Virus record (IMG/VR): IMGVR_UViG_3300028800_000060
Location: 1-64,000 of that record
Length of the DNA: 64,000 nucleotides
Reading direction: 5' to 3' (one strand)
Origin: a virus
Of this stretch, positions 12,047-20,251 are shown one piece after another (positions within the stretch are counted from its first letter, which is position 1; each line of letters begins with the position of its first letter). The position numbers and the translations under genes were made by a program. Under the pieces are notes generated by a model. The model was not told where the DNA came from, did no database searches, and saw only the letters and a list, made by a program, of their open reading frames with translations.

Positions 12047-12231
12047 TATGGAACATGTAGATAAGACCCTCGAAGACCTTAAAGCAGCGGGTTATACTGA
12101 AGATAAAATTTACGATGTTATCAGAGACAAAATTAGGGAAGCTTTAAATGTTCCCATGGTAGGTAAATACGACTTCGCCAGAACCGGATCGCTTGCAAAC
12201 TAAAAGAAATTGTGATATAATAGAATATTCT

Positions 12232-12465
12232 ATGAAAAAACGATTAATTAAATGTTTTAAACAAGTGTTTCCTGAAGTACCAAATAGTCAAATAGGCTCA
12301 ATTAAGGACCAATCAGTACACGAATGGACCTCACTTACTGTCATACAATTAATTATGGCAGTAGAACGTGAATTTGGAATTGAAATTGATTTAGAACGTC
12401 TCGAACATTTAACATCATTTGATGCCTTCTTGGGGGAAGTTGAAAAAGCCTCCTCGGCAGAATAG
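12232..12465 (+). CDS. Acyl carrier protein
   Basis: 77-aa acidic four-helix pattern 'WTSLTVIQLIMAVEREFGIEI' (Ser = phosphopantetheine site, usually WDSL); adjacent to FkbH; sigma70 promoter TTGCAA-17-TATAAT upstream. Confidence 0.85.
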   Translation: MKKRLIKCFKQVFPEVPNSQIGSIKDQSVHEWTSLTVIQLIMAVEREFGIEIDLERLEHLTSFDAFLGEVEKASSAE

Positions 12466-12480
12466 AATTGGAAGAAGTAA

Positions 12481-13437
12481 ATGAAAGCAATAATAACTGA
12501 TTTAGATTATACCTTTTGGCAAGGTGTATTGATTGAAAATGGTACGCAGGTAAAAATATACCAACGATATGCCAACTTCTTGAAGGAGTTACAAACAGAG
12601 GGAATTTTAATAGGCGTAGCTAGTCGAAATGATTTTGGTCTTGTGGAGGAAGCTTTAAAAGATTTCGATTTTTTCCCAATAGAAACAAGTTTGTATGGAA
12701 ATAAATCTCTATTGGTTTCTAATATATTGTATGCCTGGAATATTCTCCCAGAAGATGTACTTTACATAGATGACAATGTATTTGAAATCCGAGAAATTTG
12801 TTCTAAATTCCCTAGTATGAAATACCTCATTTTTGATGGTGATAATGAAAAGGAAACTGTAGAAATGCTCAGAAATGAATGTTTTCCAAAAAAAGAGGTA
12901 TCTACAGAAGATAAACTCAGACGAGAAAGTATTAAGGCGGGTGTAAGATTTAATCGTGAAATGGTAGAAACTGGTGATACTGAAGAATTTTTTGGATCTT
13001 TAAATGCTGAAATTGTTGTGTGTGAAGAATGGACGCCAAGAGCAATTGATTTGATCAATAAAACACATCAATTTAATATTAATGATTTGAAATTAACCGA
13101 AGATGATATAGAAATAGCAAAATTATTTACCGATGTGAAATGCGTTACATTTAGTTATACCGATAAATTTGGTTCATTAGGTACTGTAGGTGTAGCAATA
13201 GTTACAAAATTTACCAATAGTTGTTGGTTACATTCTTTTTGTTTGAGTTGCCGTGCTTTTGGACGTAGGATAGAACATCAGATGTTGAATTATCTGAACA
13301 CCAAATACGGACCAATTAATATCAATAATATCGATTTACACGATACAGGTAAAAATCAGGCGGCCCTCGATTTCTTTAAAGAAATATCTTGTACAAAATT
13401 ACATCATAAGGTTATATGCACGAAAACCGTGAAATAA
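12481..13437 (+). CDS. FkbH-like HAD-IIIC glyceryl transferase/phosphatase
   Basis: DLDYTFW (DxDxT), ASRN, YIDDN..E, 'LINKTHQFN', 'DKFGSLG' and 'LSCRAFGR.IE' FkbH motifs. Confidence 0.9.
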   Translation: MKAIITDLDYTFWQGVLIENGTQVKIYQRYANFLKELQTEGILIGVASRNDFGLVEEALKDFDFFPIETSLYGNKSLLVSNILYAWNILPEDVLYIDDNVFEIREICSKFPSMKYLIFDGDNEKETVEMLRNECFPKKEVSTEDKLRRESIKAGVRFNREMVETGDTEEFFGSLNAEIVVCEEWTPRAIDLINKTHQFNINDLKLTEDDIEIAKLFTDVKCVTFSYTDKFGSLGTVGVAIVTKFTNSCWLHSFCLSCRAFGRRIEHQMLNYLNTKYGPININNIDLHDTGKNQAALDFFKEISCTKLHHKVICTKTVK

Positions 13438-17373: not shown

Positions 17374-18181
17374 ATTTGTTGATTTTTGGCCCGGATTTGA
17401 CGTTAATAATAATTACTTTACCAATTTACTTCATAAAGAATGGAATATAGAAAATACAGATTCGCCAGATTATGTAATATGTTCTGTATTTGGAAATAAC
17501 TATAAGAAATATAATTGCACTAGGATTTTGTTTACGGGAGAAAATACCCGTCCTAATTTAGTGGATTATCATTTCAATTTTGGTTTCGATTATGTTGATG
17601 ATGATCGTTACTATAGATTGCCATTATATCTGATATATGGTTCTCCAGAAGAATTACTTACAAAACTATCTTTTGAGGATAATCTTAAACAAAAAACAAA
17701 ATTTTGTAGTTTTGTGGTTGGTAATCCTAATGCCAAGGAACGTCTTGAATTTTTTGACCTATTATGTAAGTATAAAATGGTTGATTCCGGTGGGCCTGTT
17801 AGAAATAATATAGGTAGAAATCTCGATCCTGGAGAAAAAGTAGAATGGTGTAGGCAATACAAATTCTCTTTGTGTTTTGAAAATTCATCGTATCCTGGAT
17901 ATACGACTGAGAAATTATTCCAAGCGATGCAATCTAATACCATTCCAATCTATTGGGGAAATCCATCAGTTGCACGAGATTTTAATCCTGGAAGTTTTAT
18001 TCATGTGAATTATGGTTATTCTGATGCGATTGAATTGATAAAGGAAATTGATAAAGATAATGATTTGTATCGCATAATTTACGAACAACCATATTATCCA
18101 AATAATCAATTGACCGAATATACTAAAACAGAAAATATATTAAACCAATTTAGAAGGATTTTTAATGGCAACATTAGATGA
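17357..18181 (+). CDS. GT10 (alpha-1,3/1,4-fucosyltransferase-like) glycosyltransferase
   Basis: 'FTGENTRP', 'FCSFVVGN', 'YKFSLCFENSSYPGYTTEKL...IPIYWG'. Confidence 0.92.
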   Translation: MSLKIKFVDFWPGFDVNNNYFTNLLHKEWNIENTDSPDYVICSVFGNNYKKYNCTRILFTGENTRPNLVDYHFNFGFDYVDDDRYYRLPLYLIYGSPEELLTKLSFEDNLKQKTKFCSFVVGNPNAKERLEFFDLLCKYKMVDSGGPVRNNIGRNLDPGEKVEWCRQYKFSLCFENSSYPGYTTEKLFQAMQSNTIPIYWGNPSVARDFNPGSFIHVNYGYSDAIELIKEIDKDNDLYRIIYEQPYYPNNQLTEYTKTENILNQFRRIFNGNIR

Positions 18182-18809
18182 GAAGCATTTAGTAGGTAGT
18201 TTACTTCATATAATTGATGACCCAGTGATTGTAGAACTTGGGGCACATATTGGTGAAGAAGAACCATGGATACGTCATTGTTGTAAAACACCTCCAAAGT
18301 ATATTATGGTAGAACCTGATCCGGCAAATCAGATGCAAATCCGTAAGAATATATTTAATTTTAACCATACTCTTTATAGTGGTGCTATAAGTGATAAAAA
18401 TGGAACATCTGAATTTTATCGTTGCGATAATACATTAGAACCTGTGTTATATTCACATGGTTCTGGTTCCATTCATAAACCTACGGGACACTTGAGACGC
18501 TTTCCTCATGTACTTTTTGATAAGCCAATAATGGTCAAGTCCTTCACTTTAGACCATATTTTCGAAAAAGAAAAGTTATCTAAGATAGATTTACTTTGGG
18601 TAGATATTCAAGGTGCGGAAAAAGAAATGATTGCTGGTGGCCGTAAAGCTTTAAAGCACACTCGTTATCTGTTTATGGAAGCTGAGTTTGAGGAATTATA
18701 CGAGGGAGAAGCTTTGAAAACTGATCTAATCTCATTGTTACCAGATTGGTCATTAATACAAGATTTTGATTATAATATTGTCCTTAGAAATGAGAAAATG
18801 AAAAAATGA
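18165..18809 (+). CDS. FkbM-family methyltransferase
   Basis: 'ELGAHIG', 'VEPDP', 'TLD', 'IDLLWVDIQGAE'. Confidence 0.9.
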   Translation: MATLDEKHLVGSLLHIIDDPVIVELGAHIGEEEPWIRHCCKTPPKYIMVEPDPANQMQIRKNIFNFNHTLYSGAISDKNGTSEFYRCDNTLEPVLYSHGSGSIHKPTGHLRRFPHVLFDKPIMVKSFTLDHIFEKEKLSKIDLLWVDIQGAEKEMIAGGRKALKHTRYLFMEAEFEELYEGEALKTDLISLLPDWSLIQDFDYNIVLRNEKMKK

Positions 18810-20251
18810 ACCAGGATTTATTAGTTTCGTGTATTACAGTTACAACAAAAAAACGAAAAGAATTTTTCCCACAATTGTTACGGTGTTGGTGGGAACAGAC
18901 ATATTTAAATACGGAACTTGTTATCGTTTCAGAAGATGACATGTCTGATGTAATTCCTAATCATCCTAGAATTCGTTTTATTCCATGTGCTCCCGGGACT
19001 TCATTGGGCCAAAAAAGGAATATTGCCTGTGAAGCTTCTAGAGGAGCTATTATAGCTCAGTTTGATGATGATGATTGGAGTTCTCCACAACGAGTTGAGG
19101 AGTGTGTGGAAGCTTTAGTTACCAAAAAAGTATTTGTTACAGGATATAGAGTTGCTAGGTTTTATGAAACAGATACCAAAATTGCAAGAATTTGGGATGG
19201 TGGTCCTAATTGGATTCAAGGATCGAGTTTGTGTTTTATAAAATCTCATTGGCAAGGAAATAAATTTCCAGATGTTGCTTCTGGAGAAGATCTATCTTTT
19301 TTACAAAATGCAGGCCTTATTTTTACTATGAATGGAATAAATCGAATGGTTTTTAGAGATCATTCTGATAATACTTGGCCACGAAAAATACATTATGGAA
19401 AAGAATGGAAGGTAATCGATTCAAATTCTACACAAAAGTTATTATATTCGCAAGAGAAAACCAAAGTTACATTAAGCATGCTTACGTGGAATGATAAAGA
19501 AAAAACTTTAGAAAATTTGAATGCTCTGAAAGCAGAAGCGGAGAATCTTCGCAAATTTAATTTTGATCCATGTATTGTAGTGTGTGATAATGGTTCCATA
19601 GATGGAACTAAATTGGCATTGAAAAAGGTAAAAGGTATACATGTTATCAATAATAAAGCAAATTTAGGAATTGCACCGGCTAAAAATAAGATTATTGATT
19701 ATGCTATAGATAATGATTCTGAATTTGTGCTTTTTACCGATTGTGATATTACGGTTGTGCCTTTTAGTGTGTTAGAAATGCTGAGATGGTTACGACCGCG
19801 AGCCTCACAAGCAGCATGTGTGGGAACAAATTGGTATAAGTGTACTGAAGACCCAAATCTGGCCGCACGATGGTGTCCTACAATTATGGATGCTGCAATA
19901 TTTCCACATCAAGCGCCAGCACATTATGGCCTATTTTTTACAAATATATTGAATCGTTATCGGTTTGATAATCATTTTGGCCCGGGTTGGGGAGCCGAAG
20001 ATAATGATCTGGCGATGAGTATTGAAGATGAGACTTATTTAAAGATGTATGTGTTTCCTTTGATACACGTACATCAACATCCACATAAGTCGATTGAATT
20101 ACTTAAAACAGATGGAATTAATCCTGAAAATGATATACGTGAACGTTATTCCCATATGATTGAAAAATGGAAAGATAAGCCTGAATTTGCCCAATTTATA
20201 AATTGGTTAATTAATGCAAAAGAGTCAAACAAAAATCTTTTACCATCTTGA
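18806..20251 (+). CDS. Two-domain GT2 glycosyltransferase
   Basis: 'VSCIT...LGQKRN...QFDDDD' plus a second domain 'CDNGSIDGT...NLGIA...FTDCD...WGAEDND'. Confidence 0.88.
   Translation: MNQDLLVSCITVTTKKRKEFFPQLLRCWWEQTYLNTELVIVSEDDMSDVIPNHPRIRFIPCAPGTSLGQKRNIACEASRGAIIAQFDDDDWSSPQRVEECVEALVTKKVFVTGYRVARFYETDTKIARIWDGGPNWIQGSSLCFIKSHWQGNKFPDVASGEDLSFLQNAGLIFTMNGINRMVFRDHSDNTWPRKIHYGKEWKVIDSNSTQKLLYSQEKTKVTLSMLTWNDKEKTLENLNALKAEAENLRKFNFDPCIVVCDNGSIDGTKLALKKVKGIHVINNKANLGIAPAKNKIIDYAIDNDSEFVLFTDCDITVVPFSVLEMLRWLRPRASQAACVGTNWYKCTEDPNLAARWCPTIMDAAIFPHQAPAHYGLFFTNILNRYRFDNHFGPGWGAEDNDLAMSIEDETYLKMYVFPLIHVHQHPHKSIELLKTDGINPENDIRERYSHMIEKWKDKPEFAQFINWLINAKESNKNLLPS

What the first reader, a model, noticed from the sequence alone, without database searches (positions are those of the whole stretch)
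12194..20251. Phage-encoded ACP/FkbH/methyltransferase/PLP/GNAT/glycosyltransferase biosynthetic island
Seen: nine tightly packed, often overlapping co-directional genes inserted right after gp46, behind a consensus sigma70 promoter. They are ACP, FkbH, TylF O-MTase, amino-MTase-fold protein, PLP fold-II enzyme, GNAT, GT10, FkbM and double GT2. Established: FkbH loads glycerate from 1,3-bisphosphoglycerate onto a holo-ACP in polyketide extender and polysaccharide-decoration pathways; TylF and FkbM methylate sugars or carrier-bound units. Inference: the phage carries a carrier-protein-dependent pathway building a methylated/glycerylated glycan or base adduct. The product could decorate the virion fibre, the host surface or the phage DNA. 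I do not know of a characterised phage pathway with an ACP-FkbH pair.
Basis: partly seen in the sequence, partly recalled or inferred. Interest (0 to 1): 0.9.

Follow-up and report, generated by a model that had tools for sequence, protein, structure and literature searches.

The report
Carrier-protein-fed phage DNA-modification cassette
An uncultured T4-like soil phage has a nine-gene operon that joins an acyl-carrier/FkbH loading pair, an acyltransferase and sugar-adding enzymes to a widespread, unstudied viral enzyme pair (a base-amine methyltransferase-type enzyme and a vitamin-B6 enzyme related to one that trims amino acids on phage DNA). It most likely builds an elaborate, undescribed decoration on the phage's own DNA rather than a surface sugar coat, but the chemistry is unproven.

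Summary
Nine co-directional, mostly overlapping genes lie at 12232-20251, between two strong promoter-like sites, in a 175.7-kb rhizosphere T4-like phage. The gene names are right; the GNAT is visible by fold only.

The interpretation can be narrowed. In four T4-like relatives, between gp46 and an IMPDH-like gene, the conserved set is carrier protein + loader + GNAT + fold-II PLP enzyme + a 566-aa SPPY amino-methyltransferase-fold protein. The loader is FkbH, or instead an AMP-ligase plus SDR. The glycosyltransferases, FkbM and TylF are optional.

- The PLP/methyltransferase-like pair recurs in about 39 of 46 viral loci inside replication modules, and is fused in both orders.
- The PLP enzyme is a remote homologue (HHalign 97.9%) of the ViI gp226-type decarboxylase, which acts on amino acids attached to DNA.
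- In three lineages the PLP enzyme ends in the same tail as its own phage's DNA polymerase.
- All nine proteins look soluble.
- The genome has no ThyA-type hydroxymethylase and no PPTase.

Best reading (about 0.45): a post-replicative base adduct is decarboxylated, N-acylated from (methyl)glyceryl-ACP and then glycosylated. Rival targets are a surface or virion glycan, RNA, or two juxtaposed modules.

The scan has already noted the methyltransferase-PLP pair on other DNA. The ACP/FkbH/GNAT branch is new here.

The parts
12193..12221 (+). Sigma-70-type promoter-like site, TTGCAA-17-TATAAT with an extended -10 TG. Probable start of the cassette transcript.
12232..12465 (+). Acyl carrier protein, 77 aa, with the Ser in EWTSL.
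   Evidence: PP-binding 6.2e-05, above the cut-off. It aligns at 34-36% identity with ACPs fused or adjacent to FkbH, with the Ser conserved.
12481..13437 (+). FkbH-family HAD-IIIC loading enzyme, 318 aa. Predicted to make glyceryl-S-ACP.
   Evidence: TIGR01686 1.7e-43, above the cut-off. It has the DLDYT motif and the invariant SCR Cys257. Bacterial relatives sit beside ACP genes in polysaccharide loci.
13416..14156 (+). TylF-family SAM O-methyltransferase, 246 aa.
   Evidence: PF05711 2.5e-76. MycF and NovP match at 1e-54 to 1e-61. Absent from the relatives L009, L015 and L070.
14177..15877 (+). MT566: a virus-only N-terminal domain (about 1-320) plus a class-I amino-methyltransferase fold (motif I at 346-354, SPPY at 439-442).
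   Evidence: The model has pLDDT 91. The best structural matches are Trm11, TrmN, Trm14 and METTL5 at Z 14-15. It is fused to the PLP enzyme in P0179 and P0226.
15938..16915 (+). Fold-type II PLP enzyme, 325 aa, ending in a polymerase-like tail, SIERFFV.
   Evidence: Family alignment with invariant K55. HHalign 97.9% to the Ackermannviridae PLP protein inferred to be the gp226 type.
16915..17373 (+). GNAT-fold acyltransferase, 152 aa. Proposed to use acyl-ACP.
   Evidence: Model pLDDT 91.9. All top Foldseek hits are GNATs, including the carrier-protein-dependent SbzI. The small family was next to the PLP gene or the methyltransferase-like gene in every context examined.
17306..18181 (+). GT10 family glycosyltransferase (alpha-1,3-fucosyltransferase-like). 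Start codon uncertain.
18165..18809 (+). FkbM-family methyltransferase, 214 aa.
18806..20251 (+). Protein with two GT2 domains, 481 aa.
   Evidence: PF00535 with two stretches. Conserved in L009 and L015.
20248..20277 (+). Next promoter-like site (TTGACG-18-TATAAT, 11 of 12). It marks the downstream border of the unit.
51815..54478 (+). Family B DNA polymerase (gp43). Its C-terminus, DMEKFFK, carries the tail motif shared with the PLP enzyme. Reference feature, not part of the cassette.
25896..26636 (+). gp45-type sliding clamp, the proposed docking partner of the tail. Reference feature.
   Evidence: gp45-slide_C. Start site.

Best explanation
The cassette is one early or middle transcription unit encoding a composite nucleic-acid hypermodification pathway. 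It most likely acts on the phage's own DNA after replication.

Shown:
- the gene families;
- the conserved five-part core in T4-like relatives (carrier protein, loader, GNAT, PLP enzyme, MT566);
- the pairing and fusion of MT566 with the PLP enzyme across many viruses;
- remote homology of the PLP enzyme to the gp226-type decarboxylase;
- a shared C-terminal tail on the DNA polymerase and the PLP enzyme.

Inferred mechanism:
1. MT566 is an SPPY amino-methyltransferase-fold enzyme. It uses SAM to put an amino-acid-type group on an exocyclic amine of a base. The simplest candidate is the 3-amino-3-carboxypropyl moiety, as class-I-fold TYW2 does on RNA.
2. The PLP enzyme, held at the fork by a clamp-docking tail, decarboxylates that group to a primary amine.
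3. FkbH loads a glyceryl unit on the host-activated ACP. The GNAT transfers it to that amine. In relatives a ligase/SDR-made acyl group takes the place of glyceryl.
4. GT10 and the double GT2 extend the adduct with sugars, probably including fucose. TylF and FkbM O-methylate them.

The likely benefit is protection of the phage DNA from host nucleases.
For: - Core and add-ons. Between gp46 and the IMPDH-like gene, four related T4-like phages carry:
  - window: ACP-FkbH-TylF-MT566-PLP-GNAT-GT10-FkbM-2xGT2;
  - L070: ACP-FkbH-GNAT-PALP-NT5C deoxynucleotidase-MT566, with no glycosyltransferase;
  - L009 and L015: PLP-GNAT-ACP(DSL)-SDR-AMP ligase-MT566, then glycosyltransferases.
  The acyl-loading genes are interleaved with the PLP, GNAT and MT566 genes in different orders.
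- FkbH-GNAT-PLP triads, with the ACP fused to FkbH in L016 and L062, occur in three further phage contig groups: L016, L062 and L063/64.
- PLP-MT566 coupling. In about 39 of 46 IMG/VR loci an MT566 homologue lies within about 3 kb of the PLP gene. Fusions exist in both orders (P0179, P0226).
- DNA link, homology. The PLP family matches the Ackermannviridae PLP protein at HHalign probability 97.9%, E 3e-13. That protein is conserved in 348 records, most of them ViI-like phages. ViI gp226 decarboxylates O-serinyl-thymidine in DNA, and a GNAT acetylates a DNA-borne amine in PaMx11 (PMC8989533).
- DNA link, tail in the window phage. Of 289 ORFs in this genome, only four end in [DEQN][KRQ]F[FMLYW]x0-2. 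They are the PLP enzyme (SIERFFV), the PolB (DMEKFFK), a canonical N6_N4 DNA methyltransferase (FIDRFMK) and one small ORF.
- DNA link, tail in other lineages. In the L015 phage the PolB ends DMEQFFI and the PLP enzyme ends FMEQFFV. In the marine group only 4 of 77 protein clusters end in FF: PolB, the PLP enzyme, and two neighbours of the PLP gene, c4 and c22.
- DNA link, position. In the marine phages the module lies between PolB, a probable clamp and the clamp loader. In L013 it follows 7-deazaguanine genes and precedes PolA.
- No sign of envelope work. All nine proteins lack a hydrophobic segment typical of membrane proteins. No Wzx, Wzy or priming transferase is present.
- The carrier-protein chemistry has a bacterial precedent. 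Campylobacter jejuni flagellin carries a di-O-methylglyceroyl N-acyl group on pseudaminic acid (PMC3068675). Its flagellar glycosylation locus holds an FkbH-domain gene (PMC7099621).
Against: - No modified base has been observed, and every chemical step is inferred.
- MT566's nearest solved folds are tRNA/rRNA amino-methyltransferases (Trm11, TrmN, Trm14, METTL5), not DNA methyltransferases. Its PF01555 score is below the cut-off.
- GT10 and GT2 enzymes are known from glycan acceptors, not nucleic acids (general knowledge).
- Bacterial relatives of FkbH sit in polysaccharide loci.
- L016 (±10 kb examined) and the short L062 and L063 contigs show FkbH-GNAT-PLP without any detectable MT566 homologue. 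So step 1 cannot be universal.
- The genome lacks ThyA-type hydroxymethylases, so the known C5 route does not apply.
- Clamp binding by the tail rests on analogy with T4 and RB69 (own knowledge).
- An earlier scan note reports the same pair fused to mRNA-cap enzymes in a giant virus.
Confidence: 0.45

Rival explanations
1. Glycan decoration of the host surface or the virion. The cassette makes a glyceroylated, methylated, fucose-containing oligosaccharide. It attaches this to host LPS or capsule intermediates, or to a virion protein such as the collagen-like fibre encoded at 855-3740. The PLP enzyme and MT566 would tailor an unusual amino sugar or a protein side chain.
For: GT10, two GT2 domains, FkbM and TylF are classic glycan-tailoring families. 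The FkbH-ACP pairs of bacteria lie in polysaccharide loci with GT4, Wzy_C and hexapeptide acyltransferases. An O-methylglyceroyl N-acyl group on a flagellin sugar is known in Campylobacter jejuni. The same window encodes a collagen-repeat protein followed by a GT2-TPR protein.
Against: The conserved core contains no glycosyltransferase (L070). Fold-II PLP enzymes and SPPY amino-methyltransferases are not part of known sugar pathways (general knowledge). There is no membrane protein, flippase, polymerase or priming transferase. The PLP enzyme carries the polymerase tail. The module sits in replication gene blocks in unrelated phages.
Confidence: 0.2
2. Two unrelated modules share one plastic genome site. 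MT566, PLP and GNAT (with ACP and FkbH) modify nucleic acid. GT10, FkbM, the double GT2 and perhaps TylF are an independent glycan-modifying island that is merely co-transcribed.
For: The glycosyltransferases are optional and variable. They are absent in L070 and reduced in L015. About half of the marine loci go straight from MT566 to the clamp loader. TylF resembles sugar O-methyltransferases. Variable islands in phages often collect unrelated accessory genes (general knowledge).
Against: Stop and start codons overlap across the GNAT/GT10, GT10/FkbM and FkbM/GT2 junctions. No promoter-like site with more than 10 of 12 matches and no convincing terminator lies inside the unit. In two independent phage groups a variable island of glycosyltransferase, sulfotransferase and methyltransferase genes follows the MT566 gene. 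That is expected if these enzymes elaborate its product.
Confidence: 0.2
3. The target is RNA. The core enzymes hypermodify tRNA, rRNA or transcript ends, and the product is an acylated or glycosylated RNA base.
For: The best structural neighbours of MT566 are m2G tRNA and m6A rRNA methyltransferases, Z 14-15. An earlier scan note (e1-5533615, not checked here) reports the MT-PLP pair fused to mRNA-cap enzymes in a giant virus.
Against: The polymerase-type tail on the PLP enzyme is shared with a DNA methyltransferase. The nearest characterised relative of the PLP enzyme acts on DNA. A deoxynucleotidase lies inside the L070 cassette. The module is placed next to the polymerase, clamp and clamp-loader genes.
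Confidence: 0.1

Closest known systems
Thymidine hypermodification pathways of phages ViI, M6 and PaMx11 (Lee et al. 2018 and 2021; PMC5889632, PMC8989533)
   Same: The PLP enzyme here is a remote homologue of the Ackermannviridae PLP protein taken to be the ViI gp226 type (HHalign 97.9%). gp226 decarboxylates an amino acid hanging on DNA. In PaMx11 a GNAT then acylates the DNA-borne primary amine. The logic is the same: attach an amino acid, decarboxylate it, then N-acylate the amine.
   Different: No dUMP/dCMP hydroxymethylase of the ThyA family was found. Neither 5-HMUDK nor aGPT-Pplase was searched for by name, and no such family appeared among the proteins scanned. The attaching enzyme would instead be an SPPY methyltransferase-fold protein. 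The acyl donor would be an ACP thioester, not acetyl-CoA. Glycosyltransferases are added.
FkbH/ACP glyceryl-loading systems: methoxymalonyl-ACP and tetronate polyketide pathways, and FkbH-ACP pairs in bacterial polysaccharide or flagellin-glycan loci
   Same: FkbH scores above the TIGR01686 cut-off and keeps the HAD motif and the SCR cysteine. It sits next to a WDS-type small ACP, exactly as in bacterial loci. O-methylglyceroyl amides on sugars are known.
   Different: The FkbI/FkbK-type dehydrogenases needed for (methoxy)malonyl-ACP are absent, and there is no PKS. The setting is a phage operon with a PLP enzyme and a methyltransferase-fold enzyme. The phage has no PPTase.
T4-type DNA glycosylation (alpha- and beta-glucosyltransferases on hydroxymethylcytosine)
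   Same: Phage-encoded sugar transfer to a pre-installed handle on DNA, with content that varies between relatives. The genes lie in the early region near genes 46 and 47 (the T4 map position is own knowledge).
   Different: The folds differ: GT-A GT2 and GT10 here, against the GT-B-type T4 enzymes (own knowledge). No hydroxymethylcytosine route is present. Whether these glycosyltransferases touch DNA is untested.
SAM-dependent aminocarboxypropyl or aminopropyl transfer by class-I methyltransferase-fold enzymes (TYW2, spermidine-synthase-type enzymes)
   Same: They set a precedent that this fold can transfer the amino-acid arm of SAM rather than the methyl group (own knowledge). A polyamine synthase (BpsA) appears among the fold matches (rank 50).
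   Different: There is no sequence-level kinship beyond the shared fold. MT566 keeps the SPPY motif typical of true amino-methyltransferases, so plain methylation is not excluded.

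Membership tests
FkbH family (TIGR01686 / HAD-IIIC) | Profile score above the curated cut-off | tested here: met
   149 bits against a cut-off of 146.65, covering 2-304 of 318 residues.
FkbH family (TIGR01686 / HAD-IIIC) | HAD motif I (DxDxT) and the conserved cysteine of the C-terminal domain | tested here: met
   DLDYT at residues 7-11. 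S256-C257-R258 is invariant in 19 aligned relatives.
FkbH family (TIGR01686 / HAD-IIIC) | Loads a glyceryl unit from 1,3-bisphosphoglycerate onto holo-ACP | not testable with these tools
   Needs an enzyme assay with intact-mass MS.
Acyl carrier protein (PF00550) | Profile score above the cut-off, and a Ser at the phosphopantetheine site | tested here: met
   23.6 bits against 20.8. The Ser of WTSL aligns with WDSL/WDSV in FkbH-fused or FkbH-adjacent ACPs.
Acyl carrier protein (PF00550) | A cognate phosphopantetheinyl transferase is available | tested here: not met
   No PF01648 match in the 175.7-kb genome. Sfp-type families were not searched separately. A host enzyme would have to serve.
Methoxymalonyl-ACP pathway (FkbG/H/I/J/K) | FkbK- and FkbI-type dehydrogenases next to FkbH and the ACP | tested here: not met
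   No dehydrogenase family appears among the nine proteins. The methyltransferase is of TylF type, not FkbG type.
GNAT acyltransferases | GNAT fold | tested here: met
   No Pfam hit. The model (pLDDT 91.9) matches only GNATs, with TM 0.6-0.77.
N6/N4 DNA methyltransferases (PF01555) | Profile score above the gathering cut-off | tested here: not met
   21.4 bits against 26.7. Only the motif-IV region (residues 434-508) matches. Motif I lies upstream of SPPY, the opposite order to that family.
N6/N4 DNA methyltransferases (PF01555) | SAM motif I and (S/D/N)PPY motif IV conserved | tested here: met
   D346, G350, G353, R354 and S439 are invariant. P440, P441 and Y442 are at least 90% conserved in 44 relatives.
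gp226/gp52-type PLP decarboxylases of thymidine hypermodification | Homology and a conserved PLP lysine | tested here: met
   HHalign probability 97.9%, E 3e-13, over the C-terminal half. K55 is invariant. phrog_3650 matches at 4.9e-16. That the AV101 protein is the gp226 orthologue is inferred from its conservation in ViI-like phages.
gp226/gp52-type PLP decarboxylases of thymidine hypermodification | Accompanying hydroxymethylase, 5-HMUDK and aGPT-Pplase | tested here: not met
   No ThyA-family gene in the genome; only a weak ThyX-like match. The kinase and Pplase families were not searched by name. So it is not a member of that pathway, though it may work like it.
GT10, GT2, FkbM and TylF families | Profile scores above the cut-offs | tested here: met
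   FucT_N 89.3, GT10 68, GT2 87.5 (two stretches), FkbM 67.3 and TylF 256.9 bits.
Bacterial surface-polysaccharide assembly locus | Membrane components (priming transferase, flippase or polymerase, or ABC exporter) | tested here: not met
   None among the nine proteins. No 19-residue window has hydropathy above 1.5, except in the doubtful N-terminal extension of GT10.

The most novel reading that the evidence does not exclude
The phage makes a DNA base that carries an aminoalkyl linker, N-acylated with an ACP-delivered (O-methyl)glyceroyl group and extended by a methylated, fucose-containing oligosaccharide. This would be the first nucleic-acid modification pathway known to use an acyl carrier protein and FkbH. 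It would also be the first viral DNA glycan built by GT-A-type (GT2/GT10) enzymes. It would be installed at the replication fork by clamp-tethered enzymes.
Probability: 0.3. Interest if true: 0.95.

Novelty: new variant of a known kind. Interest (0 to 1): 0.78.

Why it matters
Known phage DNA hypermodifications start from C5-hydroxymethyl pyrimidines or 7-deazaguanine. This cassette points to a different entry route: a SAM-using amino-methyltransferase-fold enzyme paired or fused with a gp226-like PLP enzyme. It also points to a new supply line, carrier-protein thioesters, with swappable loaders and optional sugar-adding modules.

If this is confirmed, three things follow.
- The chemical space of natural DNA would widen.
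- A gene pair found in many uncultured viruses, with more than 1,000 protein clusters at E below 1e-10 for MT566 alone, would be explained.
- New enzymes for site-specific DNA functionalisation would become available.

It would also make a concrete question testable: are DNA-modifying enzymes recruited to the replisome through polymerase-like clamp-binding tails?

Tried and rejected
- Complex prediction of gp45 with the last 50 residues of the PLP enzyme gave no verdict. The score was 0.56, but one control scored 0.57. It is not used either way.
- Megablast of the cassette against isolate phages found no match. tblastn of the double GT2 found none. The PLP enzyme gave only two weak hits. MT566 matched only through its C-terminal domain, in Twort-like and Bacteroides phages.
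- The search for related loci with the single FkbH protein found no relatives. The alignment-based scan found 8.
- PDB sequence searches for MT566, the PLP enzyme and the 152-aa protein gave nothing significant.
- The N-terminal domain of MT566 matched only viral proteins of its own kind in the ESM Atlas search. Its fold was not searched separately.
- No detectable relationship to MT566 was found by HHalign for the 292-aa ORF of L016, the 310-aa ORF of L065 or the 367-aa ORF of L062.
- The sliding-clamp identity of marine protein c3 rests on a weak match to RB69 gp45 (E 0.0017). HHalign to the window's gp45 gave E 0.0066 but low probability. It is treated as probable only.
- No RNA holder was listed among the public runs. 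The DNA holders are rhizosphere metagenomes.
- The literature searches held no paper on a phage ACP/FkbH pathway, on aminocarboxypropylated phage DNA, or on a methyltransferase-like/PLP module.
- The first phmmer screens used a mis-framed ACP query (12233 instead of 12232). ACP co-occurrence therefore rests, not or 116.

Full report
**What the window is.** The window is the first 64 kb of a 175,698-bp virus record, estimated 98% complete. All large genes are on the + strand and G+C is about 0.35.
- Its gp46 is 43-46% identical to those of Stenotrophomonas, Methylophilales and cyanobacterial T4-like phages.
- UvsW, gp47, gp45, gp44 and a family B polymerase are also present.
- The same phage was assembled from several samples. 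Public runs that hold it are rhizosphere metagenomes.

**The observation.** Nine co-directional genes fill 12232-20251.
- Family assignments are given in the observation check.
- The 152-aa protein has no profile hit. Its high-confidence model matches only GNAT acyltransferases.
- The ACP starts at 12232.
- A promoter-like site with an extended -10 lies at 12193-12221. The next such site starts at 20248, so the nine genes form one bracketed unit.
- The cassette is compositionally like the rest of the genome.

**The ACP-FkbH pair is genuine.**
- FkbH passes the curated TIGR01686 cut-off. It keeps the HAD DxDxT motif and the invariant Ser-Cys-Arg motif of its relatives.
- The ACP aligns at 34-36% identity with carrier domains fused to FkbH in two other phage contigs, and with a stand-alone ACP next to a bacterial FkbH. 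The Ser is in register: WTSL against WDSL or WDSV.
- Bacterial relatives of FkbH lie in polysaccharide loci.
- The phage encodes no ACPS-type PPTase, so a host enzyme must activate the ACP.
- Among 50,697 isolate phage records FkbH has one weak hit.

**Comparative anatomy changes the picture.** Four T4-like relatives carry different versions of the cassette at the same place, between gp46 and an IMPDH/GMP-reductase-like gene.
- Window: ACP, FkbH, TylF, MT566, PLP, GNAT, GT10, FkbM, 2xGT2.
- L070: ACP, FkbH, GNAT, a PALP enzyme, an NT5C deoxynucleotidase and MT566, with no glycosyltransferase at all.
- L009/L010 and L015: PLP, GNAT, a DSL-type carrier protein, an SDR, an AMP-binding ligase and MT566. 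These are followed by GT10, FkbM and 2xGT2 in L009, or by 2xGT2 only in L015.

The constant set is therefore carrier protein + loader + GNAT + PLP + MT566. The loader is swappable, and the glycosyltransferases and O-methyltransferases are optional.

Further links support this grouping.
- FkbH-GNAT-PLP triads occur in three more phage contig groups, L016, L062 and L063/64; the ACP is fused to FkbH in L016 and L062.
- An MT-like-GNAT pair occurs in L065.
- The GNAT family is small, with 16 clusters. In every context examined it lay next to one of these partners.

**The MT566-PLP pair is a widespread viral unit.**
- MT566 has more than 1,000 cluster representatives at E below 1e-10.
- The PLP enzyme has a well-populated family with an invariant lysine.
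- In 46 IMG/VR loci recovered with the PLP profile, about 39 have an MT566 homologue within about 3 kb.
- Fusion proteins exist in both orders.
- In a large marine group the order is DnaB-like helicase, RNR, (TonB-type receptor), GS-like protein, PolB, probable clamp, PLP, a CxxCxxCC protein, then the MT566-like protein. After that comes either the clamp loader or a variable island of glycosyltransferase, sulfotransferase, methyltransferase and GNAT genes.
- In another phage type the pair follows QueD/QueE/FolE genes and precedes PolA and a DnaN-type clamp.

**What the two enzymes resemble.**
- The PLP family matches, at HHalign probability 97.9%, a protein conserved across ViI-like Ackermannviridae. 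In those phages the PLP enzyme gp226 decarboxylates O-serinyl-thymidine within DNA. In PaMx11 a GNAT acetylates the DNA-borne amine (PMC8989533).
- MT566 has a virus-only N-terminal domain and a class-I methyltransferase domain with invariant motif I and SPPY.
- MT566's best structural neighbours are the amino-methyltransferases Trm11, TrmN, Trm14 and METTL5. It falls below the PF01555 cut-off. The fold therefore says 'exocyclic amine of a base' but does not separate DNA from RNA.

**A polymerase-like tail on the PLP enzyme.**
- Of 289 ORFs in this genome, only four end in an acidic/amide-basic-Phe-aromatic motif. They are the PLP enzyme (SIERFFV), the family B polymerase (DMEKFFK), a canonical DNA methyltransferase (FIDRFMK) and one small ORF.
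- In the complete L015 phage the polymerase ends DMEQFFI and the PLP enzyme ends FMEQFFV.
- In the marine group only 4 of 77 protein clusters end in FF. They are the polymerase (…ERFF), the PLP enzyme (…H[DNG]FF) and two neighbours of the PLP gene, c4 and c22.
- In T4 and RB69 the polymerase's C-terminal peptide docks on the sliding clamp (own knowledge; PDB 1b8h appears). The shared, co-varying tail thus suggests that these enzymes ride the clamp on DNA. This is inference. The one complex prediction gave no verdict.

**Other constraints.**
- The genome has no ThyA-family hydroxymethylase, so the known C5 route is not the entry point.
- None of the nine proteins looks membrane-bound, and no envelope-assembly component is present.
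- TylF is closest to sugar O-methyltransferases.
- GT10 is closest to alpha-1,3-fucosyltransferase.

**Most likely mechanism (confidence about 0.45).**
1. MT566 uses SAM to place an amino-acid-type arm on a base amine.
2. The clamp-tethered PLP enzyme decarboxylates it to a primary amine.
3. FkbH charges the ACP with a glyceryl unit and the GNAT transfers it to that amine.
4. GT10 and the double GT2 add sugars, which TylF and FkbM methylate.

The carrier-protein/O-methylglyceroyl logic has a bacterial precedent in Campylobacter jejuni flagellin sugars.

Three weak points remain.
- The identity of the transferred group is unknown.
- It is unknown whether the glycosyltransferases act on the same adduct.
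- FkbH-GNAT-PLP triads exist without a detectable MT566 nearby.

**Rivals.** These are a surface or virion glycan (0.2), two juxtaposed modules (0.2) and an RNA target (0.1). They are detailed in their own sections.

**Novelty.** The held literature contains no description of such a module. Earlier agents of this scan flagged the methyltransferase-PLP pair in other genomes, so the pair is not new to the scan. New here are:
- the coupling of the pair to an ACP/FkbH/GNAT acylation branch;
- the swappable loader;
- the fusions in both orders;
- the polymerase-tail evidence in three lineages.

I rate it a new variant of a known kind (phage nucleic-acid hypermodification). Interest is high because it gives specific, testable predictions.

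Noticed in passing
window 855-5505: A 961-aa collagen-repeat protein (855-3740) is followed by a 607-aa GT2 plus TPR protein (3682-5505). This may be a glycosylated fibre, separate from the cassette.
   Followed up: partly
window 20634-21698: An IMPDH/GMP-reductase-like gene (PF00478, 5e-85) follows the cassette behind its own promoter. The same gene follows the cassette variants in L009, L015 and L070. A role in the pathway is not excluded.
   Followed up: partly
window 60569-61297: A canonical N6_N4 DNA methyltransferase (6.6e-44) ends in FIDRFMK, the same tail type as the polymerase and the PLP enzyme. The tail may be a general recruitment signal for DNA-modifying enzymes.
   Followed up: partly
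L013 and L052, about 7000-13100: In a PolA/DnaN-type phage, QueD, QueE and FolE genes lie directly upstream of an MT566-like gene (349 aa), a PLP gene and a 723-aa N6_N4_Mtase gene. Its PLP enzyme ends in ...GLLF, which resembles a beta-clamp motif.
   Followed up: no
L022 2775-5645 and the same gene cluster (c11) in about ten further marine loci: Marine phages that carry the PLP module encode a SusC-like TonB-dependent receptor of about 940 aa (CarboxypepD_reg, Plug and barrel domains). They also encode a glutamine-synthetase-like protein. Both lie between the RNR and PolB genes.
   Followed up: no
L070 10704-11243: An NT5C-type 5'-deoxynucleotidase gene sits inside the glycosyltransferase-free cassette variant, between the PLP and MT566 genes.
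   Followed up: partly
L063 1856-2452: An S-adenosylmethionine lyase gene lies about 4 kb upstream of an FkbH-GNAT-PLP triad in a short phage contig.
   Followed up: no
window 12049-12204: A conserved 51-codon ORF lies between gp46 and the cassette promoter. It is called as a gene in several public assemblies. Its function is unknown.
   Followed up: no
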